Assembly: GCA_016930715.1 (NCBI GenBank)
Contig: JAFGGC010000013.1
Coordinates: 135,796 to 199,795 of the forward strand
Source: Endomicrobiales bacterium
GTDB taxonomy: Bacteria; Elusimicrobiota; Endomicrobiia; Endomicrobiales; JAFGGC01
Direction of reading: 5' to 3'
DNA: 64,000 nucleotides
This document shows positions 34,438 through 52,618 of the stretch, piece by piece (within the stretch, counting starts at the first letter, position 1; the number at the start of each line of letters is the position of its first letter). The position numbers and the translations under genes were made by a program. The notes under the pieces were generated by a model that made no database searches, was not told the origin of the DNA, and saw nothing but the letters and a program-made list of their open reading frames with translations.

Positions 34438-34466
34438 TTGACAAAGGGTGAATTCTCTGCTAAAAT
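34438..34466 (+). promoter_or_regulatory. Near-consensus sigma-70-like promoter of the kinase block
   Basis: TTGACA (34438-34443), a 17-nt spacer, then TAAAAT (34461-34466). It sits 64 nt upstream of the ATG at 34531, which is preceded by GAGAGG. Confidence 0.6.
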
Positions 34467-34530
34467 TTTTGTTGCGACCCGTTTTTGCTTTGAATTTCAG
34501 TCTTTTTTTAAGCGAGAGGTATATACCGGT

Positions 34531-37500
34531 ATGACTGAAAAACCCGTCCATGGAAAGATGCTCATAAACGAGCAATATCTGACCGTAAAGAAAATCGGCC
34601 AGGGCGGTTTCGGAGTAGTCTGGCGGGCATACGATTTCAGCCTCAAGAATTACGTCGCGGTCAAAGAGCTTCTTCAGGAATACAGCGAGGCGAAGTATGT
34701 CGAGATGTTCTATAAAGAAGCTCTCATCGCGAAAAATATCATACACGACAACATTGTCCGCGTGCAGCATTTCTGGAAGGGCTCCAACGGGGCCTTTTAC
34801 ATCACGATGGACTACGTGTCGGGTACCGACCTGGAAAACCTCCTCAAACTCTGCAATAAAGTCGAAGTCAGGCTTCCGTGGGAACTTGTAGTACTCATAG
34901 CCGGAAGCGCCCTCAAAGCCCTTGATTACGCCAACAGGATCGCCAAGGACGTGATAACCGGCAAACCCTACGGCATCGTATACAGGGACATCTCTCCGGG
35001 AAACATCCTCATTTCGTTCGAAGGCAACGTGAAACTCAGCGATTTTGGCGTGGCAAAGACCGCTGAAGAGATGGCCGACGCCGCCAAGAAAAGGATAGTT
35101 GCCGGGAAGTACGCGTATATGTCCCCCGAGCAGATGAGGGGTGAGCCGGACGTCGACCATCGTTCCGACGTTTTTTCCATCGGGGTCGTGCTTTTCGAAA
35201 TGCTGGCCGGCAGGCCGCTTTATTCCGGTGACACGACCCAGATAAGGGAACAGGTACTGAACGAAAAATTCGATCCCAATCTGCTCACGAGCATCGGGAT
35301 ACCCGACGACCTTGCCATAATAGTCCAAAAGGCGCTCGAGAAGGACAAAGAGCTCAGATACGAAAAAGCCATCGAGATGTTCAGGGACCTGAGGCGCCTT
35401 CTCAAGGGCAAGGAGACGGAGGAGCTCGCCCAGGACCTTTCCGTGTTCATAGCGAGGAATATGAACGAGGAAATCTCCAAGGAAAACGAGTTTGCCGAAA
35501 GCATCAGACAGTTGAACTTAACCGAAATAAAAGGCGATCCCAAAGTAACGAAAATAACCTGCAAGGATTTCATAGTAGGGGATCTCACCGCGGATGTTCC
35601 GCACGAGGAAGCGCCGCCGGCGCCGCAGTATCAGCCGAGCGGGCCGGCTCCTTCCCAGCCCCTTCAGCCGCCTCCGCCAGAAGAGCCGAAGGCGCAACAG
35701 GAACAGCCCGTTCCCGAAGACAAGGAAAAATCAGCCGAACCGTACTATCCCGAGCCGATAGGCGAACAACCGCAGGCGGCCGCGCCTTCCGAGCCGCAAA
35801 AAGCCAAATCCGTCCATAAACCCGAGCCCGAACCCGAACCGAAATACGAACCGCCGCCGCAGCCGCAACAGCCCCAGCAGGCGGCTGCGCCCATACAGCA
35901 GTATTATCCCGCAAAGCAGTCTCAACAGCCTTCCTACGATACGTACTATCCTTCACACCCTTCTCCAAGCGAAGAGAAGGGGAAAACGGTTTTTGAGGAA
36001 GTCGGCGACTGGCTCGTCAACAAGTTTAAGGTATACAAAAAACGCCTGATAAGGGTCACGATGGCCCTGATATTTTTCGCGATTCTTTTTACCGTGGCCG
36101 ATACTTTCTTGAGGATAACCCCGGTGGGCAGCAGGATATATTCCATGCTCTATCCGCCGGACGTGGTGATCACAACGGTGCCTCCCGGAGCCACGGTAAC
36201 GGTTAAAACAAGGGACGGGAAACCCGTCATTTCGAACGCCGATTCGTCCAGGCCCATAGAGCTGAGGAAGGTTTTGCCCAGGACCTACGTGCTTACCGCT
36301 ATGAAGGACGGATTCAAGACTGTCGAGCGCATAATCAAGATAGAGGAGCAGACCGGCGGCAAAAAAATGCAGCAGAACATAGAGGTAACCTTCGATTTCG
36401 CGCTTGAGATCGATTCGATGCCTCCGGGCGCCGAGGTTTACGTCGACGGAAATAAATTCAACGTCACGCCCTGCAGGGGGGAGTTTGTGGCTGGCGAACA
36501 CACGATAAAGCTCGCGATGAAGGGTTTTGAGGATCTGGGCTCAACGGCGAAAGAAGCGAAAGCCGGGCAGTGCAACATCGATTTCACGAGGCCTTCTCCC
36601 GATGAAGCGTTCGGAGGGATAGATCCCAAGTACTGGAAGTACGACGTTATAAATACCGAGTCGGGGGCGGTATTCAAGGTCACGGGGCACCTTTACAAAT
36701 TCTACAATCTCGGATCGGTGCCCAAGGACTGTGTCGTTCACATCGAGGGAGAGAGCCAGCCGAGAGGGAACACTCCTTTAAGGACCCCGCTAAAGGCGGG
36801 AACCTACAAGATAAGGTTCCTTGACTCGAGCGGCAAGTACCAGCAGACCACGAGACCGGTCACCTGCGACCAGAATTCAAATCAGAACATAAGCGTTTAC
36901 CTCAATAAGTGGGTGACGTTCAAAGTCCGCTCAAAAGAGCATCCGAACGAATCTTTCGTTACGAACCTGAAAATAAAAGGCGCCGGTATGAGTGTATCAA
37001 AAGAGATATCAACGAACAAACCAATAAGAATGGCCCTGCCGGTCACGACCTATGAAGTCATTTTCGAGGGCGACAAGGAATATAAAACGCTTGCCTTGAA
37101 GGTGAATATTGCCGGCAGGAGCCTGATACTGGGAGAACTGGAATACGAGAATTCCATTTTAACGGTCAACGTCAAGGATGAATCGACGAAAAAAGCGATA
37201 GAAGACGCGTATGTCTGGCTGGGGTCCAAGATAGCGGGCAAAACGAATTCTCAGGGCGCTTTTGAAACGGAAGTGCTTCACGGCACCACGAGCGTTAGGA
37301 TAGTGGCCAAGGGCTACATTGACAAGACCGTGGAAAAAGCGATAAAAGTCCGGAAAGAGCAGGTGGATATCGAACTGGCTCCGGAAAGAGTCGAGATTCC
37401 GGGCATTTCGACCGCTCCGCCCGTGGCGCCAACCGGCTATGGTTTACCGGGTCAAAAAACGATATTTTCTCCCGTGCCGGCCTCCGAAAAACCTTCCTAC

Positions 37501-37755
37501 GAAGCGCAGACTCCCGGACGGCGGCCCCGCACGCCGGGCGGTTCGCAGCCGGATAGCTATCAGCAGCCTCAGGCGCAGCCGCAGTACCAGCAGCCGCAAT
37601 ATCAGCCGCCCGCGCCCGTTCCAAGGCAGCCGGCGACTTCACCCGGCGGCCAGCAGGTTATAGTGTGCCCCAACTGCGGCAAGGAATATGTTATAACGGG
37701 GCCGAAGAAACCGAGGTTTTGCACGAACTGCGGAAGGCCTTTTAATTTAAGATAA
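34531..37755 (+). CDS. Membrane Ser/Thr protein kinase: Hanks kinase, P/Q-rich linker, TM, PEGA-type beta-sandwich array, P/Q-rich tail and C-terminal zinc ribbon
   Basis: Kinase motifs are GQGGFGVVW, VAVKEL, YRDISPGNIL, DFGVAK and YMSPEQ. The TM is VTMALIFFAILFTVADTFL. PEGA-like units include PPGATVTVKT and MPPGAEVYVDGNKFNVTPC. The C-terminus is CPNCGKEY...FCTNCGRPF. ATG at 34531 is chosen over the ORF-track TTG at 34438, which coincides with the -35 box. Confidence 0.85.
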   Translation: MTEKPVHGKMLINEQYLTVKKIGQGGFGVVWRAYDFSLKNYVAVKELLQEYSEAKYVEMFYKEALIAKNIIHDNIVRVQHFWKGSNGAFYITMDYVSGTDLENLLKLCNKVEVRLPWELVVLIAGSALKALDYANRIAKDVITGKPYGIVYRDISPGNILISFEGNVKLSDFGVAKTAEEMADAAKKRIVAGKYAYMSPEQMRGEPDVDHRSDVFSIGVVLFEMLAGRPLYSGDTTQIREQVLNEKFDPNLLTSIGIPDDLAIIVQKALEKDKELRYEKAIEMFRDLRRLLKGKETEELAQDLSVFIARNMNEEISKENEFAESIRQLNLTEIKGDPKVTKITCKDFIVGDLTADVPHEEAPPAPQYQPSGPAPSQPLQPPPPEEPKAQQEQPVPEDKEKSAEPYYPEPIGEQPQAAAPSEPQKAKSVHKPEPEPEPKYEPPPQPQQPQQAAAPIQQYYPAKQSQQPSYDTYYPSHPSPSEEKGKTVFEEVGDWLVNKFKVYKKRLIRVTMALIFFAILFTVADTFLRITPVGSRIYSMLYPPDVVITTVPPGATVTVKTRDGKPVISNADSSRPIELRKVLPRTYVLTAMKDGFKTVERIIKIEEQTGGKKMQQNIEVTFDFALEIDSMPPGAEVYVDGNKFNVTPCRGEFVAGEHTIKLAMKGFEDLGSTAKEAKAGQCNIDFTRPSPDEAFGGIDPKYWKYDVINTESGAVFKVTGHLYKFYNLGSVPKDCVVHIEGESQPRGNTPLRTPLKAGTYKIRFLDSSGKYQQTTRPVTCDQNSNQNISVYLNKWVTFKVRSKEHPNESFVTNLKIKGAGMSVSKEISTNKPIRMALPVTTYEVIFEGDKEYKTLALKVNIAGRSLILGELEYENSILTVNVKDESTKKAIEDAYVWLGSKIAGKTNSQGAFETEVLHGTTSVRIVAKGYIDKTVEKAIKVRKEQVDIELAPERVEIPGISTAPPVAPTGYGLPGQKTIFSPVPASEKPSYEAQTPGRRPRTPGGSQPDSYQQPQAQPQYQQPQYQPPAPVPRQPATSPGGQQVIVCPNCGKEYVITGPKKPRFCTNCGRPFNLR

Positions 37756-37817
37756 AAAAATTGGATGCCCTGCTTGACCCGGTTCCGGCCGGAACGGTCG
37801 GCGGGGGGAGGATACAG

Positions 37818-38915
37818 ATGGACGGAATACCGATAAAACGTATTTTAATTGCGTCGTTGTTTCTATTCGCGGTTTCGCTGAGCTTCGCGGTGATGCCCAG
37901 GCAGATGAATTACCAGGGGAAGCTGACCGACGATACCGGAGCGCCACTGAACGGGACCTATAATTTCACCTTCACGCTGTATGACGCCAGCGGTTCGACC
38001 TGGACGGAGACTCAAAACGGAATTACTGTGGAGAACGGTCTTTACAACGTTCAGCTTGGAAGCGTCAACAATGCCCTGGCTGACCTTCCCTTCAACACCA
38101 CGTACTTTCTGGAGATCAAGGTGGAAAGCGAGACCCTCTCGCCGAGGCAGATGCTCACTGTGAGCCCGTATTCCTTCAGGAGCAGGTATTCCGATTTCGC
38201 GTCGAGTCCTGGCCAACACGCGAGCACTCACCTTTCCGGTGGCACGGACCCGTTGTCCGGCGTTCTCGCGCCGACCGTCATCGTCAGTTCGGTCGCCTTG
38301 AATTCAATTCACAACGCTCAAGTAAACGGTAGTGCCGCCATCGCGATAAGCAAGCTGGCGTCGTCCGGCACGCTCGGGGCCGGTGTCGTCGCGAGTTCCA
38401 TAGCGGTCAATGCGGTTCATCCGCGGGCCGTGAGGAACGGCGAGTATGACCTTGCCACCAGCACGCTGAATATTGCCGTGATTAACGCGTACATGGTCAA
38501 AGCTTCAAGTTTCTACTCTACGGGCGCCGACCTTGCCGAGATATATCCGTCAATGGAGTTCCTCGAGGCCGGGGATATCGTTTCCATGAGCGAGGAGCGC
38601 GGATTCAACGTGCTCAACGTCGAGAAATCAAAAGTCCCGTACGACCCCAAAGTTCTGGGAGTGGTGTCGACCAAGCCGGGCCAGGTGCTCGGCGCCGGGG
38701 AAAAAGGATATCCCATAGCTCTTGCCGGCAGAGTGCCCGTCAAGGTCACGGCCGAAAACGGGGCGATCGAACCCGGCGACCTGATAACGACTTCGTCAAT
38801 GCCGGGTTATGGAATGAAAGCGACACAGGATAAGCGCGGAACGGTTATCGGCAAGGCGCTCGAATCGCACGATTTCGGCACGAAAAAGATACTTGTTTTC
38901 ATTATGCTAAGATGA
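37818..38915 (+). CDS. Secreted tail-fibre-like protein with possible peptidase-G2/IMC-type C-terminal domain
   Basis: Signal/TM segment ILIASLFLFAVSLSFA. The N-terminal module MNYQGKLTDDTGAPLNGTYNFTFTLYDASGSTWTETQNGITVENGLYNVQLG resembles modules seen in tail-fibre-domain proteins. The C-terminus (ADLAEIYPS...GDIVS...KVLGVVSTKPG...ALAGRVPVKV...PGDLITTS) resembles the autoproteolytic chaperone domain of phage appendage proteins. ATG at 37818 follows GGGAGG. Confidence 0.5.
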   Translation: MDGIPIKRILIASLFLFAVSLSFAVMPRQMNYQGKLTDDTGAPLNGTYNFTFTLYDASGSTWTETQNGITVENGLYNVQLGSVNNALADLPFNTTYFLEIKVESETLSPRQMLTVSPYSFRSRYSDFASSPGQHASTHLSGGTDPLSGVLAPTVIVSSVALNSIHNAQVNGSAAIAISKLASSGTLGAGVVASSIAVNAVHPRAVRNGEYDLATSTLNIAVINAYMVKASSFYSTGADLAEIYPSMEFLEAGDIVSMSEERGFNVLNVEKSKVPYDPKVLGVVSTKPGQVLGAGEKGYPIALAGRVPVKVTAENGAIEPGDLITTSSMPGYGMKATQDKRGTVIGKALESHDFGTKKILVFIMLR

Positions 38916-40120
38916 ACGGTAAAAAACTGTTTGTACTATTCGCCGCTGTGTTTGTTTTTTCGGCCGGGGCCTCGTCCGGAACCGTACAGCCTTTTTATTC
39001 CTCAAGCAACGGCTACGGAAAAGGCTCGTCATCTTCGTACGGAAACACCTCCAACGTGGGGCAGCTCGCCGGAGACTCGCTGAGTCTCAATTACAGGAGC
39101 TACGGCGGTTATCTTGCCTCGCAGGTCGTTGTGATAGATTTTTCAATGACCTTTTTCGACGAATCGCCGGCCGCCAGCGAATGGCAGGAGACCACGGACG
39201 TCACGGCCAGGGTCACGGTGTACGTTTCCACGGGAAACACGATAGCCAGCGTCAAATACAGGATATCGAACTCCGGCCCCGACGAATCAAGTTTCTTCGC
39301 CTGGCAGTCGGACGCGGTCGTGGACACAGTGATAGACGCGACGAAGACGAGGTACAGGGTATCGATTCCAAACTCGGCCGGACAAAGCCTCGCAGAAGGA
39401 GAGAACAATTACATACAGTGGCAGGTGACGAACAACGCGAACTCCAAGGCCCAGTCTGGCATTTACAGGATACGCGTCAGGAGCAACGACGCCCCGTCTA
39501 TCACGATAACGCAGCCGGACGCGAAAAGCAATTTCACCTCGATGTCGCCCCGCGTGGAAGCCACTATCACCGACGAGCACGGGGGAGTGGACGCCGGCAG
39601 CATCGGCGTCGGTATAAGCAGGTCGAATGGGACATCCGTGGCGTCGCTAAATTCGTCCGGCGTGCCGTCCATTTTTGACGCTTCGACGGGTAAGCTGTCT
39701 TGTACCTTTACGGGAGTCTCGCTTACCGCCGACGCTTCATACACGTTGACGGTGACCGCTTCGGACACTAAGGGCAGGTCGTCTTCCAGCACTATGACCT
39801 TTATTCCGAAATCCGGGGCCATAGCCGACCTTGTTCCTTACCCTTCGCCTTTCGACCCCAAGGCGGAGCCGATAAAGATAAGATACGTTCTGACTAAGAG
39901 ATCGGACGTTTCGATAAGGATATATGATATGAGCGGCCGTCTGGTGAGATCGATTGTTGACAATGACGTCAGGGAGGCCGGGTTGTCCGAAGATGAGTGG
40001 CGCGGCATCAATTACGCCGGGGAAGATATGGCCAACGGCGTGTACCTTTGCGAGCTTGTCGCTAAAGACGAGGACGGCGAACATCGTTCCCATACTGCCT
40101 TGGCGATTTTCGGTAAATAG
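38912..40120 (+). CDS. Secreted Ig-like repeat protein with FlgD-Ig / T9SS-CTD-like C-terminal domain
   Basis: Signal peptide, then an Ig-like unit (APSITITQPD...ATITDEHGGVDAGSI...YTLTVTASDTKG). The C-terminus is PYPSPFDPKAEPIKIRYVL...VSIRIYDMSGRLVRSIV...GEDMANGVYLCELVA. ATGA overlap with the upstream gene. Confidence 0.6.
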   Translation: MNGKKLFVLFAAVFVFSAGASSGTVQPFYSSSNGYGKGSSSSYGNTSNVGQLAGDSLSLNYRSYGGYLASQVVVIDFSMTFFDESPAASEWQETTDVTARVTVYVSTGNTIASVKYRISNSGPDESSFFAWQSDAVVDTVIDATKTRYRVSIPNSAGQSLAEGENNYIQWQVTNNANSKAQSGIYRIRVRSNDAPSITITQPDAKSNFTSMSPRVEATITDEHGGVDAGSIGVGISRSNGTSVASLNSSGVPSIFDASTGKLSCTFTGVSLTADASYTLTVTASDTKGRSSSSTMTFIPKSGAIADLVPYPSPFDPKAEPIKIRYVLTKRSDVSIRIYDMSGRLVRSIVDNDVREAGLSEDEWRGINYAGEDMANGVYLCELVAKDEDGEHRSHTALAIFGK

Positions 40121-40123
40121 AAA

Positions 40124-41167
40124 ATGAAAAAGATTCTGCTGGCTGCGACATTCACGGTTTTCCTGGCGAATCAGGTTTTCGGAGGAACGGGCGCCGCCGC
40201 TTTTCTGGATGTTGGCGTGGGGGCGAGGGCGCTGGGAATGGGCGGGGCTTTCGTGTCCGTGGCCGACGACCCGTCCACCGTTTACTGGAATCCGGCGGGC
40301 TTGGGAAGGCTCAACAGGTTCAGCTTCACGGCAATGAGCCAGTCGCTCGCGTCTTCTAAATGGGAAACGCTCGAGGATATTACGCCGAGTTACCAGTTTT
40401 TCGCGTTGACTATCCCGGTGAATACTTTCGGCCTGCCGTTCATAGGCAACGAAACCAACACTTTCGGAATCGGGATGATTTCCTGCGGGCTTGACTCGAT
40501 TCCGTACACGTACCTGGGATCTTCCGGTCAGATAGTAAGGGAAACTTTCAAGGATACGGAGAACGCCTATTTCATTTCTTACGGGGTGCCGATCTTTGAC
40601 GAAAGCGCCGAAGGGCTGTATGCCGGGACGACGCTGAAATTCATTACTCAGAAATTTTCAAAGATCGACGGAGCGAGTGCGACCGGTTACGATATGGATT
40701 TTGGGTTCATGTACAATTCAATGAATTTCAACATCGCGATGATGGTGGAGCGCGGTGCCTGCATGAGCTGGGCCAACGGCCGGTCCGACACGGCGCCTAC
40801 GACCGCAAAACTCGGCGTTTCTAATAAATTCTGGTTCAAGCAGTCGTACTCCATACTTGCGGTGGGGGATCTCGTGCAGAGACAGAACAGCCCGCTGACA
40901 CTTAATGCCGGCGCGGAATTCGGCTATGAAAGGGAATCGGGGAACAGAAGGTTGAAATTCGAGGGAATCTTCGCGCGCCTCGGGGTCGAAGGGTACGCGC
41001 TTGAAAACAGATACGGTTACGCGAGCAAGATAAACGAAGATATTAATCTAACGGCCGGTCTCGGATTGAGGCTGGTGACGTTCGGTTACAGCATCGATCT
41101 TGATTACGCGTTCGGCAGCTACAGGCTGGGCGACAAGAACAGGATCTCGCTGAGCCTTTATTTTTAG
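40124..41167 (+). CDS. PorV/PorQ-like (FadL-fold, UPF0164-like) outer-membrane beta-barrel
   Basis: Signal peptide, then AAFLDVGVGARALGMGGAFVSVADDPSTVYWNPAGLGRL. Alternating beta-strand pattern with a terminal aromatic (SLSLYF). Only 3 nt separate it from the upstream gene. Confidence 0.6.
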   Translation: MKKILLAATFTVFLANQVFGGTGAAAFLDVGVGARALGMGGAFVSVADDPSTVYWNPAGLGRLNRFSFTAMSQSLASSKWETLEDITPSYQFFALTIPVNTFGLPFIGNETNTFGIGMISCGLDSIPYTYLGSSGQIVRETFKDTENAYFISYGVPIFDESAEGLYAGTTLKFITQKFSKIDGASATGYDMDFGFMYNSMNFNIAMMVERGACMSWANGRSDTAPTTAKLGVSNKFWFKQSYSILAVGDLVQRQNSPLTLNAGAEFGYERESGNRRLKFEGIFARLGVEGYALENRYGYASKINEDINLTAGLGLRLVTFGYSIDLDYAFGSYRLGDKNRISLSLYF

Positions 41168-41178: not shown

Positions 41179-41291
41179 GATTACACAGATTTGCTGAGAC
41201 GATTACACAGATAAAAACGAACCGAAAGATGAAAAAAAGTAGGATTATTAGGTTTTAATCTGTGTAATCTATGTATTGAATCTGTGCAATC
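41179..41291. repeat. Repeat family 1, copy c
   Basis: gattacacagatt at 41179-41191 and gattacacagat at 41201-41212. aatctgtgtaatc at 41257-41269 and aatctgtgcaatc at 41279-41291. Confidence 0.85.
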
Positions 41292-42107: not shown

Positions 42108-42116
42108 CAAGAACGT

Positions 42117-45898: not shown

Positions 45899-46660
45899 GT
45901 GCCGGACAACAAAGTCAAGGTTTTGATAATAGACGATGATCCTGTCGTGCTTGAAGTGACCGCCGCGGGGCTCGAGACGGACGGTTTTGCGGTTTTTACC
46001 GCCGATGACGGCAAATCCGGCATAGAAAAGGTCAAAAGCGAAAAACCTGACATCATACTCCTTGACCTGAAGCTTCCGGACATAAACGGTTTTGAGGTTA
46101 CGAAGGTGCTCAAGCAGACCGCCGGCGTTTCAGAAATACCCGTGATAATGATAACGGGTGACCGGACGGTGGATATAGACCAGGCTTTTGCCGCGGGCGC
46201 CGACGATTGCATTATAAAACCCATTGATATGGGGTATCTCGTGGACAGGATACGCAAAACCGTCAAGAAAAAATTCAGGGTCCTTCTTGTTGATGATGAC
46301 AGGCAGATAGGGGATATCCTGAAGAACGTCATAATAAAGCAGCAGTTTGAGGCCGAAGTGATCTACGATGGCAGGAAGATATTCGACGTTATAAAGGCGA
46401 ACAGGCCCGACCTGATTCTTCTCGACATATCGCTCCAGATAGGCCCGGACGGCATCGAGCTGTGCCGCCAGCTGAAATCCGAATCTTCCACCAAAAGCAT
46501 CCCCATCATAATGATCACCGCGAACGAGTACTCCGACTCCGTAGAGAAGTGTTTCTCTTACGGCGCCGAAGACTACATATTCAAGCCTTTCAACCTTCCG
46601 GATTTCATACTTAAGATAAAGAAATACATGAAAATGAGCGAACAGCTCGAGAAAAAGTAG
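45899..46660 (+). CDS. Tandem receiver-domain (REC-REC) response regulator without output domain
   Basis: REC1 is KVLIIDDDP...PDIILLDLKLPDING...IPVIMITG. REC2 is RVLLVDDD...PDLILLDISL...IPIIMITA. The GTG start is preceded by GGAGG. Confidence 0.8.
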   Translation: MPDNKVKVLIIDDDPVVLEVTAAGLETDGFAVFTADDGKSGIEKVKSEKPDIILLDLKLPDINGFEVTKVLKQTAGVSEIPVIMITGDRTVDIDQAFAAGADDCIIKPIDMGYLVDRIRKTVKKKFRVLLVDDDRQIGDILKNVIIKQQFEAEVIYDGRKIFDVIKANRPDLILLDISLQIGPDGIELCRQLKSESSTKSIPIIMITANEYSDSVEKCFSYGAEDYIFKPFNLPDFILKIKKYMKMSEQLEKK

Positions 46661-46689
46661 CTCTGCCTGTTAAGCGGAACCATTTACGG

Positions 46690-48837
46690 ATGAAATATCT
46701 CGGGAGTCCAAGAACTTTAGCGTCGGCGCTTGCCCTTGTGTTGTTGTGCAGGATCATCGCTTTATCGGGTTCCGGGGCTTCCACGGTGTCCTTTCTCAAG
46801 ATTAATCCCGACCCGCAGTCCGAAGCTCTCGGGGGAAGCGTGCTTTCCCTTTCGGCGACGCCGACCGAGATACCTGTCAATCCCGCGCTTTCCGCGTACA
46901 TCTACCAGACTAAATTCGCTTTTTCCAACACATCCCTTGTTTCCGATGTCGAACATATGCACGGAGGGGCGGCCTTGCCGACAGAAATCGGGCATTTCGG
47001 CATCGGGGTGACGAACATCGGCTACGGCACCATGAAGGGTTATGCCGTGGACGCGAGCGAATATTCCATCCCGGAATCAAACGAAATGGCGGTCGTGCTG
47101 AATTATTCACGGGCTTTCAGGAGGTCGGTGCCGGTATACCGCGACTGGGGTGCCGTGGGCGCGAACCTGAAATTCGTGAGAAGCACGCTCGTGGATTATT
47201 CAAGCGACGCGATTGCCCTTGACGTCGGAGGTATACTCAAGGTCCCGGGCGCGAAAGGGCTTTCTGCCGCGCTTGTTTTTTCGAACATCGGGCAGGGCCC
47301 GAGTTTCGTAAAGGAAAGCAACCCTCTGCCGCTGTCGACGGATGTGGGCCTCAGGTACGACAAACCCGAATGGAAGGACGTGTTCGGCGTCGTGAATTTA
47401 AAAAACGATTCTGACGCGACGGCGTTCTCGGTCGGCGCCGGGGTCAGTCCCTTTTATCCGGCAAAGGTCTGGTGCGGATGGAAGGAATCCGAAAAGGCCG
47501 TCGATTCTGGCCTGAGGTTCGGGATGGGGCTCAATATAGGGTACATTAATTTTTCATATTCGTACGTTTTTTATAAAGATTTTTCGCCGGTTCACAGAAT
47601 CGGCATAGATATGGAGCTGGGCGGGTTCAGCGAGCCGAAAATCGCCTATGATTACTATCTCAACTACTATTTTCACAAAGCCAAGCAAAAATACAACAGG
47701 GGGGATTACCTGGCCGCAAGGCGCCTGTTCTCGGACATACTTTCGGTGTATCCCAACCACGAAGCATCCAAGGATTACCTCGAAAGAATCGCTTTTGAGC
47801 TCGACAAGATCGAACAGCAGAAAATGGTCGAAACGGACAGGCTGCTTCGCCGCGCGGAAGTGGCTCTTTTGAGGGACAACATCATACTTGCCAAAAAGTA
47901 TTACACGCGGGTTTTGGATGTGGACCCCGAGAATCAGAGAGCTCGCGAAGGAATGGACAGAATAGACGAAAGGCTGGGGGATTATTCATCCATCGAGGCC
48001 CAGCGCAGGAACAGGGCGAAACTGAACGTGCTTTGGGAGGATGGCTATACGGCCTACGAAAAAGGCGATTATGTCACCGCAAAGGAAAAATTCCAGCAGA
48101 TTCTAATTCTTGATCCCGAGAACGCCGAGGTTGCCAGATACCTCAGCGAGGTCCATGATCAGATATCCAAGGTTTCCTCGCTCCAAACGGAAGCGCTGTA
48201 TCAAAAAGGAGTGGAACTTTTTGACAAGGGGGATTTCGAGGAGGCGGCCAAATATTTCGGCGCGGTGAGCGTCGCCGACCCTGCAAGGGAAGACGCGAAG
48301 CATTACCTGGCCGAGAGTGAAAAGCGCATCGCGGAAAAGGAAAGAAGGGCCGCGTCGGGCGAAACGGAAAAAACCGCGAAAGAGAAACGGGAAGTCGAAA
48401 GCGTCTATTACGACGCCTTCAAACTTTTCGAGAACGAAGACTACGAAAAAGCCATAAGGGGTTTTACTAAATCAAGAGAACTGGCCAGCAAGTACGGCTT
48501 GAAGAAATACGCGGACGACTCGGCAAACTACATAACGGCCGCCAAAAGCGGCGCGGCTAACAAGTACTACAGGTTCGGCGTAGAAAACGAGAAGAAGAAA
48601 GACGAAGAAGCGGCATATGAGTTTTACCAGAAGGCTCTGGAGTTTAACCGCTCGCATATGGAGGCCAGGCAGGCGGCAAGCCGGCTCTCCGACGATCTTT
48701 CGCAGGCGTATTACGAGTCCGGCATGAAATACTACTCAAAGGGAAATATGAGGAAAGCAAGGGAATATTTTAAAAAATCGCTCTACTACAAACCCGGGAA
48801 ACTGGAATCACTAAGGGCGCTTGAGAGGATAAAATAG
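46690..48837 (+). CDS. PorV-like outer-membrane barrel fused to a long TPR/helical C-terminal region
   Basis: The N-terminus FLKINPDPQSEALGGSVLSLSATPTEIPVNPALSAY, followed by about 300 aa of beta pattern, parallels the gene at 40124. The C-terminal region of about 400 aa has TPR-like units (YNRGDYLAARRLFSDILSVYPNH, AYEKGDYVTAKEKFQQILILDPEN, YSKGNMRKAREYFKKSLYYKPG). Confidence 0.55.
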   Translation: MKYLGSPRTLASALALVLLCRIIALSGSGASTVSFLKINPDPQSEALGGSVLSLSATPTEIPVNPALSAYIYQTKFAFSNTSLVSDVEHMHGGAALPTEIGHFGIGVTNIGYGTMKGYAVDASEYSIPESNEMAVVLNYSRAFRRSVPVYRDWGAVGANLKFVRSTLVDYSSDAIALDVGGILKVPGAKGLSAALVFSNIGQGPSFVKESNPLPLSTDVGLRYDKPEWKDVFGVVNLKNDSDATAFSVGAGVSPFYPAKVWCGWKESEKAVDSGLRFGMGLNIGYINFSYSYVFYKDFSPVHRIGIDMELGGFSEPKIAYDYYLNYYFHKAKQKYNRGDYLAARRLFSDILSVYPNHEASKDYLERIAFELDKIEQQKMVETDRLLRRAEVALLRDNIILAKKYYTRVLDVDPENQRAREGMDRIDERLGDYSSIEAQRRNRAKLNVLWEDGYTAYEKGDYVTAKEKFQQILILDPENAEVARYLSEVHDQISKVSSLQTEALYQKGVELFDKGDFEEAAKYFGAVSVADPAREDAKHYLAESEKRIAEKERRAASGETEKTAKEKREVESVYYDAFKLFENEDYEKAIRGFTKSRELASKYGLKKYADDSANYITAAKSGAANKYYRFGVENEKKKDEEAAYEFYQKALEFNRSHMEARQAASRLSDDLSQAYYESGMKYYSKGNMRKAREYFKKSLYYKPGKLESLRALERIK

Positions 48838-49829
48838 TGTCTGAGCTGAGAAAAGACCCGGTGATAGGAAGGTGGGTAATAATATCATCGGACAGGGGAA
48901 AAAGGCCCGATGATTTCAAGGTCGGGGACGGAGGCGGAAGCCACGATAAATGTCCTTTCTGCCCGGGCAACGAAAAATTCACGCCTCCGGAAATCGTAGC
49001 CTACAGGGACGAGGCGTCAAAGAGCCCGTCGGAATGGCAGTTGCGTGTGATTCCGAACAAGTATCCGGCGCTTTCCGTTGAGGGTGATTTAAACCGCCAG
49101 GGCGAGAGCATGTACGATAAGATGAACGGGATAGGCGCCCATGAAATCATAATTGAAACCCCGGAACACTCAAAATGCATTTCCACGATGTCCGACCGGC
49201 AGGTCGAGAGCATAATCCTCGCTTATCGCGACAGGATAGTGGATTTGAAAAAAGACATTCGGTTCGAGTATATACTTGTTTTCAAGAACCAGGGGCCCCA
49301 TTCCGGCGCAACGTTGTCGCATTCACATTCCCAGCTGATAGCCACTCCGGTGGTGCCTAAGCGCGTCAGGGAGGAAGTGAACGGCGCGAAGAACTACTAT
49401 GATTACAAGGAAAGGTGCGTTTTTTGCGATATAGTGAAGAACGAGCTTGACGTGAAAACAAGGGTGGTGTGCGAGAATGAATTGTTCGTGGCCTTGTGCC
49501 CTTTCGCTTCGCGTTTCCCGTTCGAGTTGTGGATGCTGCCGAAAAAGCACGATTCGCAATTCGAGGACATACAAAAAGAGGAAGCGGCGAGTTTCGCATC
49601 TATTCTCAGAAAAGTAATGGCGAAAATAGACAAAGTCTTGAACAAGCCTTCATACAACTATCTTATTCATAATTCACCCCTCAAGGAGTCCCGCCTGTTG
49701 CATTACCACTGGCACATGGAGATCATGCCCAGGCTCACGAGGGTCGCAGGTTTTGAATGGGGCAGCGGTTTTTATATTAACCCGGTTGCCCCGGAAGAAG
49801 CGGCGAAGGTCCTGAGAGAGGCCGATTGA
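48837..49829 (+). CDS. galT: GalT-family (HIT branch) hexose-1-phosphate nucleotidyltransferase
   Basis: ELRKDPV.GRWVIIS..R.KRP, the zinc motif CPFCPGNE, NKYPAL, and the active-site HSHSQLIA. The GTG start overlaps the upstream stop (TAGTG). Confidence 0.75.
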   Translation: MSELRKDPVIGRWVIISSDRGKRPDDFKVGDGGGSHDKCPFCPGNEKFTPPEIVAYRDEASKSPSEWQLRVIPNKYPALSVEGDLNRQGESMYDKMNGIGAHEIIIETPEHSKCISTMSDRQVESIILAYRDRIVDLKKDIRFEYILVFKNQGPHSGATLSHSHSQLIATPVVPKRVREEVNGAKNYYDYKERCVFCDIVKNELDVKTRVVCENELFVALCPFASRFPFELWMLPKKHDSQFEDIQKEEAASFASILRKVMAKIDKVLNKPSYNYLIHNSPLKESRLLHYHWHMEIMPRLTRVAGFEWGSGFYINPVAPEEAAKVLREAD

Positions 49830-49847
49830 ACCGGCGGCCCAAGGAAA

Positions 49848-51584
49848 ATGAAAAATCTGGTATATTCAATTTTTAGGTTTGCGCGGAAGTTCTTCGGGGA
49901 CAGGGTTGCCGGGAAATACCTGTTTTTTCTCGCCGCCGGGATATTGTTCGCGTGGTTGACGCACGGACTTCACGGCCGAATTGCATTGGAAAACGTCAAC
50001 AATAAGGTCGAATTGTGCGTGAACCTGCGCGAAGCCGTTAGCCTGTGCGTCAATACTGGATATCCGCTCAAGGATTTGCTCCAGAGGTTCAGGACCATCG
50101 GCGTGTCGAGCCTGGCACTCAACGAAGAAACGATAGGAAGTCTCGCGTCGGACGAGAGGATAATCTTCTATCCGGCCTCGGAATATATGATGATGCGTCT
50201 GGTGGACTTGATCCCGAGGGCGAGCATTGTGTCATCGGGCGCGATAGCGACGAAGGACAGGCGGCTTTGCGAAGATCTAAAAGCAATCTTACAGACAAGG
50301 TATAAAATAACCGTAAGAACAAGGAAGGCAGGGAGTTTTTACATTATCCTGCCCCGTTCGGGTAAAAGGGAAGTGCCGTCCTTGCCGGTTGACAGGGATA
50401 TGTATGTCGGTTTCTATCACGCCGATTTGAAGATGGCGGGCGATCTGGGGTTCGGAACCGTGCTCGTGCCTGAGAATGAGGGCGACCCGTCGTGGCTTTT
50501 TGAGAATAATGCCGTTGGCAAGTCGGTTCTTCTGTGGGAATCAAACGATGTCTGCGGTTTTCCGGGCAGTGAAGCGGATTTCGGAAGTAAAATGGAGCAA
50601 GCCGGCGTGAACTACGTCGATCTGGAGTTCATAAACAATCCAGGCATGGAAATGCTGAAAACAACGGCTCTTGGCAGGCTCGTCCGGGGGCATACCATAT
50701 CGCAGGCGGAGATGAACAAGAAATACGATACCAATTTCTGGATCTCAAGATGGACACGGGGCGTAAGGGAAAGAAGCATAAGGTTTCTATACCTTCATTT
50801 TTGGGCTCAAAAGACAATCGAAAGCAATCTGCTGTATGTAAGGGAACTTGCGCAAGCGCTCAAAGCCGGGGGATATATCCTGTCCGTGACTCAGCCGCCG
50901 GATTACCCTTTAAGAAAAAGCACGAAAAGCAGAATATACATTTCCCTGGTCGCGGCAGTTTTCGTGCCTCTGGCCGGTCTCTGGCTGTGCCTGAAGACGG
51001 GCAATCCATACAAGGCGTTTTTTTCATATAACTTGACGACTATTGTCGGAGGAACTCTGGTCTCAGTGCTGCTTTTTGACAGGATGCTGATGCAGGGCGC
51101 GGTGAATTTTCCGTACGTCCGCGTGGTAATGCTTATACCTCTGGTGGCCTCGTTTTTTATGTTGTTTCCGAAAGAAGAGATTCGGAATATGCTCTCAAAC
51201 GACGTGAAAGTGCGGCATCTGGCCGTCGGAGCCCTGGCGGTCGTTGTTATGGTCATAATCATGATACGAGCCGGGAACAACAGCGCGGGATGGCTGCAGT
51301 TCGACCAGTTCATCAGGGAAATCACCGAAGACATTTTTATCGTGAGGCCCAGGACGAAAGAGTTCATCTTCGGCCAGCCGCTTCTTTTCGCGGGGTTATA
51401 TTTCAGGAACCCGTGGATGATACTTATTGGCGTCGTGGGCCAGGTCTCAATGGTAAATACCTTTCTGCACGCTCACACGCCGGTAATCGTTTCGCTCCTG
51501 AGGTCGATATACGGTATATTCCTTGGTTTTACGATAGGTTTTATCGGAGTAAAGACGACCGAATGGATCAAAAACAGGCTATGA
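49848..51584 (+). CDS. DUF5693-like polytopic membrane protein
   Basis: One N-terminal TM, a soluble region of about 300 aa, then about 6 C-terminal TMs. The family assignment rests on my recollection that DUF5693 genes sit directly upstream of csaB. Confidence 0.45.
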   Translation: MKNLVYSIFRFARKFFGDRVAGKYLFFLAAGILFAWLTHGLHGRIALENVNNKVELCVNLREAVSLCVNTGYPLKDLLQRFRTIGVSSLALNEETIGSLASDERIIFYPASEYMMMRLVDLIPRASIVSSGAIATKDRRLCEDLKAILQTRYKITVRTRKAGSFYIILPRSGKREVPSLPVDRDMYVGFYHADLKMAGDLGFGTVLVPENEGDPSWLFENNAVGKSVLLWESNDVCGFPGSEADFGSKMEQAGVNYVDLEFINNPGMEMLKTTALGRLVRGHTISQAEMNKKYDTNFWISRWTRGVRERSIRFLYLHFWAQKTIESNLLYVRELAQALKAGGYILSVTQPPDYPLRKSTKSRIYISLVAAVFVPLAGLWLCLKTGNPYKAFFSYNLTTIVGGTLVSVLLFDRMLMQGAVNFPYVRVVMLIPLVASFFMLFPKEEIRNMLSNDVKVRHLAVGALAVVVMVIIMIRAGNNSAGWLQFDQFIREITEDIFIVRPRTKEFIFGQPLLFAGLYFRNPWMILIGVVGQVSMVNTFLHAHTPVIVSLLRSIYGIFLGFTIGFIGVKTTEWIKNRL

Positions 51585-52618
51585 GAATACTCGTATCGGG
51601 CTACTATGGTTTCGATAACGCAGGAGACGAGTTAATACTCAACTCTCTGCTGATGGACCTCCGGCACAGATTTCCCGAAGCGGGAATAACGGTGTTGTCA
51701 AACAGGCCCGAAAAGACCTCCGCATTGCACGGGATAAATTCGTCTTCAAGGCGGAACCTGTTCAGGATAGTGTCATTGATCCGCTCGAGCAACATCGTCA
51801 TAACGGGCGGAGGCGGCCTTTTTCAGGACAGGACCGGGAGCCTGTCGCTGTACTACTATCTTCTGATAATTTTTCTTGCGTGGGTTTTCGGGAAAAAGAA
51901 TTATATTTTCGGCGCCGGAGTCAACGAGTTAAAAAAGCTTAACAGGTTCATGGCCGGCGCCGTGCTGAGCCTTGCGACCAAGATAACGCTGAGGGAGAAT
52001 ATCTCAAAAGACCTGCTTTTCAGGTGGGGGTGTCCGAAGAACAAGATTGAAGTTACGGCCGACCCCGTGCTATTAAGCGGGAAGAAATCAAATATCAGCG
52101 CCGAACGCACGAAGGTCATTTTTATACTGCGGCCGCCGCTTAAAGGGCAGGAGCCCGTGACAGCTTTTGCGAAGCTTGCCGATTCCATATACCAGAGGAT
52201 ATCCACGGACATAGTATTCATGCCGTTCCATCCGGAATATGACCTTAAATTCAATGAATCCGTTATGAAGGCCATGAAGTCGCCGTCGAAATTGTTCGCG
52301 TGGAGTAATTTCGGCGACCTGCACGACGCGGTCGCGGCCTCGGGGCTCATCATCAGCCAGAGGCTGCACGGCCTGATACTGGCGCTCATTTACGGCGTGC
52401 CGATGATAGGTATTTCCGACGACCCTAAAATAGACAGGTTCCTCAAGGAGCTGGGCCAGAGGAATGTTATGGAGCTGAGCAACGAAAACCTCTATTCGCT
52501 GCTTGCTATGATAACCGACGTTTTGGAATGGAAGGACGAATTCCGCAAAAAGGCCGATATAATGCTTCCCACGTACAGGATGAGGGCGAAAAGGAACGCT
52601 GAATTCCTCTTCGGATAG
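51581..52618 (+). CDS. csaB: Polysaccharide pyruvyl transferase CsaB
   Basis: MRILVSGYYGFDNAGDELIL, ITGGGGLFQD and SQRLHGLILA. ATGA overlap with the upstream gene. The ORF-track start at 51290 is an out-of-context extension. Confidence 0.75.
   Translation: MRILVSGYYGFDNAGDELILNSLLMDLRHRFPEAGITVLSNRPEKTSALHGINSSSRRNLFRIVSLIRSSNIVITGGGGLFQDRTGSLSLYYYLLIIFLAWVFGKKNYIFGAGVNELKKLNRFMAGAVLSLATKITLRENISKDLLFRWGCPKNKIEVTADPVLLSGKKSNISAERTKVIFILRPPLKGQEPVTAFAKLADSIYQRISTDIVFMPFHPEYDLKFNESVMKAMKSPSKLFAWSNFGDLHDAVAASGLIISQRLHGLILALIYGVPMIGISDDPKIDRFLKELGQRNVMELSNENLYSLLAMITDVLEWKDEFRKKADIMLPTYRMRAKRNAEFLFG

What the first reader, a model, noticed from the sequence alone, without database searches (positions are those of the whole stretch)
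34438..52618. One promoter-delimited block couples Ser/Thr phospho-signalling (kinase, 2xFHA, PP2C, 2xREC) to PorV-like barrels, CTD-type cargo and a glycan-pyruvylation module
Seen in sequence:
- A near-consensus promoter (TTGACA-17-TAAAAT at 34438) is followed by 14 same-strand genes with gaps of 145 nt or less. Five junctions overlap (38912, 44463, 48837, 51581) or are 3 nt apart (40124).
- The next consensus promoter appears only at 52780.
- Gene order is membrane STK-PEGA, tail-fibre-like secreted protein, Ig/FlgD-Ig-CTD protein, PorV-like barrel, coiled-coil orphan, FHA-FHA-TM-propeller, membrane PP2C, REC-REC, PorV-like barrel fused to TPRs, GalT, DUF5693, CsaB.

Established knowledge: STK/FHA/PP2C triads act as post-translational switches for T6SS (PpkA/Fha1/PppA) and for actinobacterial wall synthesis (PknAB/FhaAB/PstP). 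PorV-type barrels shuttle CTD cargo in T9SS.

Inference:
- I know of no described system in which a phosphothreonine triad sits in one operon with PorV-like barrels and CTD-like cargo.
- No T9SS core gene (PorK/L/M/N or Sov-like) is visible in the window.
- Kinase, phosphatase and FHA reader all carry their own periplasmic domains. This suggests an envelope-spanning, phospho-gated surface-display, secretion or contact-sensing apparatus.
Basis: partly seen in the sequence, partly recalled or inferred. Interest (0 to 1): 0.8.

Follow-up and report, generated by a model that had tools for sequence, protein, structure and literature searches.

The report
Elusimicrobial envelope phospho-signalling gene cluster
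A group of little-known bacteria (Elusimicrobiota) keeps a kinase, a phosphatase and a phospho-binding membrane protein next to outer-membrane barrels, and often next to a surface-fibre gene set. The cluster is real and undescribed, but its job is unknown and the sugar-modifying genes at its end are only neighbours.

Summary
The sequence observation holds with corrections. The block has 12 genes, not 14. Every domain call was reproduced, and the two best promoter-like sites in the region bracket the block. Same-strand orientation means nothing here, because the whole 64-kb window is on the + strand.

The window comes from an Endomicrobiales (Elusimicrobiota) genome. About 30 related loci were compared.
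- Always adjacent: the FHA-FHA-TM-propeller protein and the membrane PP2C. Where the contig reaches upstream, the PEGA kinase usually lies there.
- Usually present: an orphan coiled-coil protein with a conserved C-terminal helix, a REC protein and a PorV/PorQ-like barrel fused to TPRs.
- Optional cassette: the fibre-like protein, the Ig/CTD protein and the first PorV-like barrel. It sits at the same site when present and is missing in several lineages.
- Not conserved with the cluster: DUF5693 and CsaB. Most relatives carry only a glycogen-synthase-like gene at that position.

The first barrel is closer to T9SS PorV than to FadL by sequence profile and predicted fold. No T9SS core gene lies in the window.

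Best reading: a lineage-specific, envelope-spanning phosphothreonine signalling module, probably tied to envelope growth or division. An optional surface-fibre cassette is embedded in it. Phospho-gated secretion is not shown.

The parts
34438..34466 (+). Sigma-70-like promoter match, TTGACA-17-TAAAAT with TGn extended -10, in the 106-nt gap before the kinase gene
   Evidence: It is one of only four matches of at least 11/12 on the + strand of the whole window.
34531..37755 (+). P01: membrane Ser/Thr kinase. Order: Hanks kinase domain, P/Q-rich linker, TM helix at residues 509-527, periplasmic PEGA x3 and CarboxypepD_reg, second P/Q region, C-terminal Zn ribbon.
   Evidence: Pkinase 135 bits, PEGA 81 bits. 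Stk1-family model 207 bits against a cut-off of 450. TM helix. The catalytic loop is (Y/H)RDISxxN in all 11 sequences aligned. It lies upstream of P06 in every locus that reaches that far, except L003, where ftsA takes that position.
37761..38915 (+). P02: secreted fibre-like protein with a conserved N-terminal domain of about 130 aa and a variable tip. The true start is probably the ATG at 37818. Belongs to the optional cassette.
   Evidence: Weak Bdello_MAT_N match, 31 bits against a cut-off of 60. The C-terminus weakly matches a phage tail-fibre PHROG. Orthologues are 384, 701 and 1271 aa long, with differing C-terminal tips.
38912..40120 (+). P03: signal peptide, Ig-like domains and a C-terminal FlgD_ig / type-A CTD. 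Belongs to the optional cassette.
   Evidence: FlgD_ig 49.7 bits; Por_Secre_tail 30.3 against 27; TIGR04183 31.3 against 23. The CTD carries a conserved YPSPFNPK motif in all 15 sequences aligned.
40124..41167 (+). P04: PorV-like FadL-superfamily outer-membrane barrel. Belongs to the optional cassette.
   Evidence: NF033709 90.5 bits against a cut-off of 90. The family profile hits only PorV among PDB sequences, E 1.3e-6. AF2 model pLDDT 87.8. Top Foldseek hit is PorV 8gl6_F, TM 0.64/0.61, against 0.47-0.54 for the top FadL/TodX hits. WNPAG is invariant.
41179..41291 (.). REP-like palindromic intergenic element: 2x GATTACACAGAT followed by 2x its reverse complement. It fills the P04/P05 gap.
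   Evidence: 11 matches in the window against 0.11 expected, in three intergenic sites. The RNA hairpin folds at -36.4 kcal/mol, z -4.65.
41313..42107 (+). P05: orphan protein with a signal peptide, a KKDVxDPVLxEII motif, an S/G-rich and coiled-coil region, and a conserved C-terminal hydrophobic helix ending ...AALFIAR. It travels with P06.
   Evidence: No Pfam or NCBIfam hit. 19 orthologues were aligned, and the motif occurs only in this family among the sequences held. The family has only 83 cluster representatives among 1.84 billion. It is kept in L091, which lacks P02-P04.
42217..44466 (+). P06: signature protein. Order: FHA1 (lacks the GR arginine), FHA2 (canonical), TM helix, 8-bladed BamB-like FG-GAP propeller in the periplasm, TM helix, short basic tail.
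   Evidence: FHA 93 bits, FG-GAP_3 111 bits. Invariant residues. TM helices. AF2 pLDDT 85.8. Foldseek hits BamB with target-normalised TM 0.70-0.78. All named homologues but one (labelled Paludibacter) are from Elusimicrobiota.
44463..45881 (+). P07: membrane PP2C phosphatase with a TM helix at 314-332 and a periplasmic C-terminal domain of about 140 aa. The gene overlaps P06 by 4 nt.
   Evidence: Stp1/IreP model 213 bits against a cut-off of 230. PP2C_2 52 bits. It lies directly downstream of P06 in every locus that reaches that far.
45899..46660 (+). P08: REC-REC protein with no output domain. Most relatives have a single REC.
   Evidence: Response_reg 185 bits over two stretches. Relatives.
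46690..48837 (+). P09: signal peptide, PorV/PorQ-like barrel (about residues 30-310) and a long C-terminal TPR region.
   Evidence: PorQ model 88.9 bits and PorV_fam 88.2 bits against a cut-off of 90. TPR. It follows REC in every locus that has a REC and reaches that far. In L007 a barrel-TPR protein lies upstream of the kinase instead.
48837..49829 (+). P10: GalT-type hexose-1-phosphate nucleotidyltransferase. It is a conserved neighbour of P09 and is followed by a GlgA-type gene in most relatives. Probably sugar or glycogen metabolism, not signalling.
   Evidence: TIGR00209 140.8 bits against a cut-off of 102. Context.
49848..51584 (+). P11: DUF5693 polytopic membrane protein. A neighbour, not a conserved part of the cluster.
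   Evidence: PF18949 261 bits. Found only in the window, L002, L089 and L091.
51581..52618 (+). P12: CsaB-type polysaccharide pyruvyl transferase. A neighbour, not a conserved part of the cluster.
   Evidence: PF04230 139 bits. Same distribution as DUF5693.
52780..52808 (+). Promoter-like match, TTCACA-17-TATAAT, ahead of the ftsX-like gene, the M23 peptidase and the S41 protease
   Evidence: Downstream genes.

Best explanation
This is a real gene cluster specific to Elusimicrobiota, mainly Endomicrobiia. It encodes an envelope-spanning phosphothreonine signalling module.

Shown:
- The core is an inner-membrane PknB/Stk1-like kinase with a periplasmic PEGA/Ig-like array, an Stp1-like PP2C with its own periplasmic domain, and a double-FHA protein. 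The FHA protein's periplasmic part is an 8-bladed BamB-like propeller held between two TM helices.
- These usually come with a small orphan coiled-coil protein (P05), a REC protein and an outer-membrane PorV/PorQ-like barrel carrying a periplasmic TPR arm.

Inferred:
- The kinase senses an envelope or periplasmic cue and autophosphorylates.
- The canonical FHA2 of P06 docks on phosphothreonine.
- The propeller, P05 and the TPR arm of P09 link the inner and outer membranes.
- PP2C resets the switch.
- The most likely output is coordination of envelope growth or division.

A three-gene optional cassette sits between the kinase gene and P05/P06. It encodes a chimeric fibre, an Ig protein with a type-A CTD and a PorV-like barrel. 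It most likely builds an outer-membrane-anchored surface fibre or adhesin that shares the cluster's transcription and possibly its phospho-control. GalT, DUF5693 and CsaB are neighbours, not components.
For: - Domain identities. Topology.
- P06-PP2C adjacency holds in every locus that reaches downstream of P06, spanning at least 10 lineages below 60% P06 identity and down to 27-30% identity.
- The kinase sits immediately upstream in L006, L008 and L090, with only its own split-off C-terminal fragment between in L005, and one gene further upstream in L007 and L091.
- P03-P04-P05-P06 order is kept at only 31-35% P06 identity in L023 and L024.
- In L007 the barrel-TPR gene has moved upstream of the kinase but is still adjacent.
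- P05 is retained with P06 when P02-P04 are absent, as in L091.
- The kinase/FHA/PP2C/REC/barrel-TPR genes (without P05) survive in termite Endomicrobium loci, one of which carries a fragmented S41 gene.
- Division or segregation neighbours recur: scpAB upstream, ftsX-M23-S41 downstream, and ftsA directly upstream of P06 in L003.
- The kinase and phosphatase score best against the Stk1 and Stp1/IreP models; the FHA region scores best against FhaB/FipA.
- In other organisms FG-GAP propellers are fused directly to kinases (L027, L030, L031, L060). This supports a periplasmic partner-binding or sensor role for the propeller.
Against: - No experimental or transcript data exist.
- Among closer relatives, flanking housekeeping genes are collinear too, so some of the synteny is inheritance and not selection.
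- No peptidoglycan synthase, FtsZ-ring or known secretion gene lies inside the cluster, so the output is a guess.
- The kinase lacks the catalytic-loop lysine in all 11 sequences aligned, and FHA1 lacks the phosphothreonine-binding arginine. The phospho-relay may therefore be atypical.
- No histidine kinase for the REC protein lies nearby.
- No physical contact between any pair of components was tested.
Confidence: 0.5

Rival explanations
1. The whole set is a phospho-gated secretion or surface-display apparatus. Kinase, PP2C and FHA switch on a T9SS-independent route, using PorV-like barrels, that exports or anchors the CTD protein and the fibre.
For: - P04 is nearest to T9SS PorV by profile and fold.
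- P03 passes the type-A CTD thresholds, and the CTD is its best-conserved part.
- P03 and P04 are 3 nt apart and are present or absent together in all loci that reach that far.
- The cassette is always inserted between the kinase gene and P05/P06.
- P02 looks like a chimeric surface fibre.
- There is a precedent: the T6SS threonine-phosphorylation pathway (established knowledge).
Against: - Six of the loci that reach upstream of P06 keep the triad without the cassette: L005, L006, L007, L008, L090 and L091. Cargo display therefore cannot be the core function.
- No translocon, motor, sortase or ATPase gene lies in the window.
- A FadL-superfamily barrel of this kind with an N-terminal hatch is not known to export folded proteins by itself (established knowledge).
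- The abstracts retrieved describe T9SS as a system of Bacteroidota.
Confidence: 0.2
2. Adjacency without coupling. The STK/FHA/PP2C triad is a housekeeping regulator. The fibre/CTD/PorV cassette, the barrel-TPR protein, REC, GalT and the CsaB module are unrelated genes that lie in a collinear, densely packed, single-strand chromosome region.
For: - The whole window is on the + strand and tightly packed.
- Flanks are collinear in relatives.
- The cassette and the CsaB module come and go.
- In relatives the block runs on into glgA-ftsX-M23-S41 with gaps of 2-25 nt, so tight spacing does not mark a functional unit.
Against: - P03-P04-P05-P06 order persists at 31-35% P06 identity.
- The barrel-TPR gene stays next to the triad in L007 even after rearrangement.
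- P05 is an orphan family of only 83 cluster representatives. It was found only directly upstream of P06 in the loci held.
- When present, the cassette always occupies the same slot inside the triad.
Confidence: 0.25
3. An anti-phage defence island built around a Ser/Thr kinase.
For: The kinase domain hits PADLOC PD-T4-6 and mad6 models and NCBIfam MADS6.
Against: - The hits cover only the generic kinase domain. The other cluster proteins have no defence-model hit or only weak generic ones.
- The locus sits at a fixed chromosomal position among housekeeping genes across a class-level clade. This is unlike the variable placement of defence islands.
Confidence: 0.02

Closest known systems
T6SS threonine-phosphorylation pathway (PpkA / PppA / Fha1 with TagQRST), Pseudomonas aeruginosa
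   Same: A membrane Hanks kinase with a periplasmic domain, a PP2C phosphatase and an FHA reader, encoded together with outer-membrane and periplasmic accessory proteins. The switch links envelope state to a trans-envelope machine.
   Different: - No T6SS core genes lie in the window.
- P06 scores 39.7 bits against the TagH model cut-off of 120.
- Here the FHA protein is itself a membrane protein with a periplasmic propeller.
- The phosphatase is membrane-anchored.
- The outer-membrane partners are PorV/PorQ-like barrels.
PknB-PstP-FhaA/FhaB(FipA) cluster of Actinobacteria and Stk1/Stp1 (PrkC/PrpC, IreK/IreP) of Firmicutes
   Same: - The best-scoring NCBIfam models for the kinase (Stk1 family), the phosphatase (Stp1/IreP, 213 bits against 230) and the FHA region (FhaB/FipA).
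- A conserved chromosomal position beside division and segregation genes.
- Retention in what look like reduced genomes.
   Different: - The periplasmic sensor is PEGA/CarboxypepD_reg, not PASTA.
- There is no rodA or pbpA in the cluster.
- The host is diderm, and outer-membrane barrels are part of the set.
- The kinase catalytic loop lacks the conserved lysine.
T9SS PorV shuttle with type-A CTD cargo (Bacteroidota)
   Same: P04 meets the PorV/PorQ family threshold, and PorV is its top structural and only PDB sequence hit. P03 carries a CTD that passes TIGR04183 and PF18962. The two genes are adjacent.
   Different: - The host phylum is Elusimicrobiota.
- No SprA/Sov, PorK/L/M/N, PorU or PorZ gene lies in the window.
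- The PorV2 and PorQ equivalog scores are far below their cut-offs (66 against 325; 36 against 220 for P04).
Treponema pallidum FadL-like OMPs TP0548 / TP0859 / TP0865
   Same: A 14-stranded FadL-superfamily barrel followed by a C-terminal, presumably periplasmic, helical extension with TPR motifs (PMC8407342). This is the same domain order as P09.
   Different: P09 has a much longer TPR region (about 400 aa). It scores as PorV/PorQ-like and not as FadL. It is encoded inside a kinase/phosphatase cluster.
Bdellovibrio mosaic adhesive trimer (MAT) chimeric fibres
   Same: P02 has a conserved N-terminal domain with a weak match to Bdello_MAT_N. Its length and C-terminal tip vary between orthologues. 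This parallels the invariant N-terminus and swapped tips of MATs (PMC10769870).
   Different: The match is below the family cut-off (31 against 60 bits). Trimer formation and surface location were not tested.

Membership tests
Type IX secretion system (PorV shuttle + CTD cargo) | PorV-family FadL-like outer-membrane barrel | tested here: met
   P04: NF033709 90.5 bits against a cut-off of 90. The only PDB sequence hit is PorV. Top Foldseek hit is PorV, TM 0.64. P09 barrel: 88.2 bits against 90, just below the cut-off.
Type IX secretion system (PorV shuttle + CTD cargo) | Cargo with a type-A C-terminal sorting domain | tested here: met
   P03: TIGR04183 31.3 bits against 23; PF18962 30.3 against 27. 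FlgD_ig scores higher, at 49.7.
Type IX secretion system (PorV shuttle + CTD cargo) | Translocon and motor genes (SprA/Sov, PorK/L/M/N) and the PorU/PorZ attachment complex | tested here: not met
   None was found among all the large ORFs of the 64-kb window or in the annotated relatives' loci. The rest of the genome could not be scanned with these tools.
Type IX secretion system (PorV shuttle + CTD cargo) | Host in Bacteroidota | tested here: not met
   The window protein is identical to one in an NCBI MAG labelled 'Endomicrobiales bacterium'. Relatives are Elusimicrobiota. The T9SS abstracts retrieved describe the system as one of Bacteroidota.
T6SS threonine-phosphorylation pathway | Hanks kinase + PP2C + FHA protein encoded together | tested here: met
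T6SS threonine-phosphorylation pathway | Linked T6SS core genes; Fha1/TagH-type FHA protein | tested here: not met
   No T6SS families were found in the window. TagH model 39.7 bits against a cut-off of 120.
PknB/Stk1-PstP/Stp1 cell-wall signalling pair | Stk1-type kinase with extracellular PASTA repeats | tested here: not met
   The kinase domain matches (207 bits) but falls below the cut-off of 450. There is no PASTA domain; PEGA and CarboxypepD_reg take its place.
PknB/Stk1-PstP/Stp1 cell-wall signalling pair | Cognate Stp1-type PP2C encoded nearby | tested here: inconclusive
   213.3 bits against a cut-off of 230 over the full model length. It is membrane-anchored with an extra periplasmic domain.
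Plain FadL-type hydrophobic-substrate transporter | Match to the FadL/Toluene_X family; the FadL fold as nearest structure | tested here: not met
   Neither barrel has a PF03349 hit. FadL/TodX structures rank below PorV, at TM 0.47-0.54 for the top hits. The superfamily and the NPA hatch motif are shared.
CsaB / pyruvylated-glycan module as part of the system | Pyruvyl transferase conserved with the cluster | tested here: not met
   CsaB and DUF5693 are present only in the window, L002, L089 and L091. They are absent from L004, L005, L006 and L090, and from loci L011-L016 and L020-L022, where no match to either was found between GalT and M23.

The most novel reading that the evidence does not exclude
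Elusimicrobiota possess a previously unknown envelope-spanning machine. In it, a BamB-like propeller/FHA scaffold, a tail-anchored coiled-coil protein and PorV/PorQ-like barrels attach a CTD protein and chimeric fibres to the cell surface without any T9SS translocon. Assembly is switched by threonine phosphorylation. This would be a PorV/CTD sorting route independent of, and perhaps ancestral to, the Bacteroidota T9SS.
Probability: 0.15. Interest if true: 0.85.

Novelty: new variant of a known kind. Interest (0 to 1): 0.5.

Why it matters
STK/FHA/PP2C triads are known switches for the T6SS and for Gram-positive wall synthesis. None has been described with outer-membrane PorV/PorQ-like barrels, and none in Elusimicrobiota, a phylum with almost no experimental cell biology.

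The cluster offers a defined, phylum-specific candidate for how these small diderm bacteria link outer-membrane and periplasmic state to cytoplasmic signalling. It also provides a natural test case for what PorV-like barrels and type-A CTDs do outside the T9SS.

The nested pattern (core triad, then REC and barrel-TPR, then the fibre cassette) gives clear comparative and biochemical hypotheses.

Tried and rejected
- Exact-match look-up of the window's P06 found nothing.
- A homology search with the 99-aa CTD of P03 returned only one hit because of the word index. It could not show whether this CTD is a common tag in Elusimicrobiota.
- The metagenome scan used an FG-GAP repeat pattern. Most of the 80 loci were unrelated propeller proteins, and only L009-L026 were true relatives.
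- PADLOC gave only generic kinase-domain hits, so the defence-system reading was rejected.
- Rfam and tRNA scans of the window found nothing.
- P02 had no PDB sequence match.
- The periplasmic domain of PP2C had no Pfam hit. Only a faint PEGA hit is on record for the L007 orthologue.
- Literature searches found no relevant paper. The term sets were Elusimicrobia + type IX secretion; PorV + FHA + PP2C; Endomicrobium + FHA domain; Elusimicrobia + PorV; PEGA domain + kinase + FHA.
- The C-terminal ...AALFIAR motif of P05 was considered as a general sorting tag. It occurs only in P05 orthologues among the sequences held, so that idea has no support.
- An intrinsic terminator or promoter in the two larger internal gaps was considered. 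The consensus scan found neither.

Full report
**1. What is in the sequence**

Between 34438 and 52618 there are 12 + strand ORFs, not 14.

The junctions are as described. Overlaps occur at 38912, 44463, 48837 and 51581. There is a 3-nt gap at 40124, and the largest gap is 145 nt (41167-41313).

The promoter-like site TTGACA-17-TAAAAT at 34438 is there and carries a TGn extended -10. In 33500-53400 the only other 11/12 match is at 52780. On the + strand of the whole window only four such matches exist: 5147, 30006, 34438 and 52780. Each lies just upstream of a gene start, so they look meaningful. The total count of weaker matches equals chance, 15 against 14.8. No intergenic terminator-like site lies inside the block.

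Same-strand orientation carries no information. Every Pfam-supported ORF in the 64 kb is on the + strand.

**2. Identities**

- **P01** is a Hanks kinase. Its best model is the Stk1 family, at 207 bits. It has one TM helix at residues 509-527 and periplasmic PEGA and CarboxypepD_reg domains.
- **P03** has Ig-like domains and a C-terminal FlgD_ig domain. The domain also passes both T9SS type-A CTD thresholds.
- **P04** reaches the PorV/PorQ family cut-off (90.5 against 90 bits).
- **P06** has two FHA domains, a TM helix, an FG-GAP propeller and a second TM helix.
- **P07** is an Stp1-like PP2C (213 against 230 bits) with a TM helix and a periplasmic domain of about 140 aa.
- **P08** is REC-REC.
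- **P09** is a PorV/PorQ-like barrel (88-89 bits) with about 400 aa of TPR.
- **P10, P11 and P12** are GalT, DUF5693 and a CsaB-type pyruvyl transferase.
- **P02 and P05** have no Pfam family.

The flanks are housekeeping genes.
- Directly upstream: M50, TrpS, ScpA, ScpB and a TIM-barrel protein.
- Downstream: an FtsX-like protein, an M23 peptidase, an S41 protease, a polysaccharide deacetylase, TsaD and Dus.
- Further upstream: a MoxR/Bat operon and PMT-TPR glycosyltransferases.
- No T9SS, T6SS or other secretion core gene was found anywhere in the window.

**3. Are the barrels PorV-like or plain FadL?**

Only P04 was modelled.
- A profile of 32 P04 homologues hits only PorV (6h3i_F, E 1.3e-6) among all PDB sequences.
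- The AlphaFold2 model has pLDDT 87.8.
- Its best Foldseek match is PorV from the substrate-bound T9SS translocon (8gl6_F, TM 0.64/0.61).
- The top FadL, TodX and TbuX hits follow at TM 0.47-0.54.

P04 therefore belongs to the FadL superfamily. It keeps the invariant WNPAG hatch motif, but it is nearest to PorV.

**4. The signature protein P06**

Its model has pLDDT 85.8. The periplasmic propeller is closest to the 8-bladed BamB (target-normalised TM 0.70-0.78) and to YxaL.

FHA2 keeps the canonical GR...SxxH...N residues. FHA1 lacks the arginine.

**5. Origin and distribution**

P06 and P04 are identical to proteins of an NCBI MAG labelled 'Endomicrobiales bacterium', on a contig of 233,994 bp. 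All named P06 homologues but one (labelled Paludibacter) come from Elusimicrobiota: Endomicrobia, Endomicrobium spp. and Ca. Ruminimicrobium.

**6. Synteny test**

I collected 29 loci that encode a P06 relative. They fall into at least 13 lineages below 60% P06 identity (made before the last three loci were fetched).

| Feature | Where it holds |
|---|---|
| PP2C directly after P06 | every locus that reaches downstream, down to 27-30% P06 identity (L008, L026) |
| PEGA kinase upstream of P06 | every locus that reaches upstream, except L003, where ftsA precedes P06 |
| P05 directly upstream of P06 | most lineages, including L091, which lacks P02-P04 |
| REC then barrel-TPR after PP2C | the window and 21 of the related loci (L001 shows REC only before its contig ends) |
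| Barrel-TPR moved upstream of the kinase, still adjacent | L007 (37% P06 identity) |
| P02-P03-P04 cassette present | window, L089, the L004/L014-L018/L020/L022 group; partial contigs L001, L002, L009-L013, L019, L023, L024 |
| P02-P03-P04 cassette absent | L005, L090 (termite Endomicrobium), L091, L006, L007, L008 |
| DUF5693 + CsaB present | window, L002, L089, L091 only; elsewhere a GlgA-type gene alone follows GalT |

P05 is an orphan family. It has only 83 cluster representatives among 1.84 billion proteins. Its C-terminus...SLGLxMVAALFIAR, is conserved.

The structure is nested: a triad, then P05, REC and barrel-TPR, then the optional fibre/CTD/PorV cassette. The pyruvylation genes are outside it.

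**7. A caveat on the synteny**

Among the closer relatives the flanking housekeeping genes are collinear too. M50-TrpS-ScpA-ScpB is kept upstream, and FtsX-M23-S41 and, in L005, TsaD-Dus are kept downstream. In L004 the genes from P06 through GlgA, FtsX, M23 and S41 are separated by 2-25 nt or overlap. Part of the conservation is therefore simple inheritance.

The informative cases are these:
- the deep lineages (L006-L008, L023-L026);
- the rearranged L007;
- the fixed insertion slot of the cassette.

**8. What it most likely does**

Shown: the components, their topology and their nested conservation.

Inferred: a trans-envelope phosphothreonine device.
1. The kinase's periplasmic beta-sandwich array senses an envelope cue.
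2. FHA2 of P06 reads phosphothreonine.
3. The BamB-like propeller, P05 and the TPR arm of the outer-membrane barrel P09 provide the contacts between inner and outer membrane.
4. PP2C resets the switch.

For the output I favour envelope growth or division control.
- The kinase/FHA/PP2C/REC/barrel-TPR genes are retained in termite Endomicrobium loci. In one of them the neighbouring S41 gene is fragmented.
- The cluster's neighbours in different lineages are scpAB, ftsA and ftsX-M23-S41.
- The best family models are Stk1, Stp1/IreP and FhaB/FipA.

The optional cassette most likely builds a surface fibre or adhesin.
- P02 has a conserved N-terminal domain with a weak match to the Bdellovibrio MAT fibre N-domain.
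- Its lengths are 384, 701 and 1271 aa, with different tips. In MATs the invariant N-domain is thought to bind a cell-surface element (PMC10769870).
- P03 and P04 are present or absent together wherever the contig allows a check.

In unrelated organisms FG-GAP propellers are fused directly to kinases (L027, L030, L031, L060). This supports a periplasmic partner-binding or sensor role for the propeller.

**9. Comparison with known systems**

The logic resembles two known systems: the T6SS threonine-phosphorylation pathway and the PknB/PstP/Fha cluster. Membership in either fails on defining features, namely no T6SS genes and no PASTA domain.

The PorV/CTD pair resembles T9SS parts. However, the translocon, motor and sortase genes are absent from the window, and the host is outside Bacteroidota. 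The T9SS abstracts retrieved describe the system as one of Bacteroidota.

P09's domain order has a precedent in the T. pallidum FadL-like proteins with TPR-bearing C-terminal extensions (PMC8407342).

No paper in the searchable library links these elements.

**10. Verdict**

This is a genuine, undescribed, lineage-specific cluster, and a new variant of the STK/FHA/PP2C theme. The proposed function, phospho-gated secretion, is one of several readings and not the best supported. Interest is moderate.

Noticed in passing
window 6239-6321, 30042-30118, 41179-41291: A dispersed REP-like intergenic element: two direct copies of GATTACACAGAT followed by two copies of its reverse complement. There are 11 matches against 0.11 expected. 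The copy between P04 and P05 folds into a hairpin of -36.4 kcal/mol (z -4.65). It could act as an mRNA stabiliser or attenuator inside operons.
   Followed up: partly
window 41313-42107 (P05) and orthologues in L001-L025, L091: An orphan family with only 83 cluster representatives among 1.84 billion. It has a signal peptide, an S/G-rich linker of variable length and a conserved extreme C-terminus, (K/R)(I/V)SLGLxMVAALFIAR. The layout resembles C-terminal sorting or anchor signals, but no other protein in the sequences held carries the motif.
   Followed up: partly
window 34531-37755 (kinase), catalytic loop 'YRDISPGN': All 11 kinase sequences aligned (the window's and 10 orthologues) have (Y/H)RDISxxN in place of HRDxKxxN, so the catalytic-loop lysine is replaced by serine. 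The G-loop, VAIK lysine, DFG and SPE motifs are intact. Activity may be atypical.
   Followed up: partly
window about 37650-37755 (kinase C-terminus); L005 9567-9971: The kinase ends in a CxxC...CxxC zinc ribbon after the periplasmic domains and a second P/Q-rich stretch. With a single predicted TM helix the ribbon would be periplasmic, which is odd. In L005 this C-terminal part is a separate 134-aa ORF.
   Followed up: no
L027, L030, L031, L060 (metagenome loci, other organisms): Ser/Thr kinase domains are fused directly to FG-GAP propellers in single large ORFs. This is the same propeller type that Elusimicrobiota attach to FHA domains.
   Followed up: no
window 60982-63142: A MotA/ExbB-type proton-channel gene is followed by two MotB-plug/OmpA-like genes. 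No flagellar genes were found in the window.
   Followed up: no
window 5199-12207 and 12170-20168: A MoxR-DUF58-BatA-DUF4159 (Bat-like) operon is followed by three paralogous TMEM260-like/PMT glycosyltransferases with TPR tails, plus PMT_2 and GT2 genes. This is a large protein- or glycan-mannosylation-like block upstream.
   Followed up: no
L003 171-5196: In one Elusimicrobiota lineage ftsA sits directly upstream of the P06-PP2C pair, and lptF/lptG lie convergent downstream. This adds a link to division and envelope biogenesis.
   Followed up: partly
L005 20140-20549: The S41 (CtpA-like) gene downstream of M23 is broken into small fragments in a termite Endomicrobium MAG, while the kinase, P06, PP2C, REC and barrel-TPR genes stay intact. 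This is consistent with genome reduction that spares the core.
   Followed up: no
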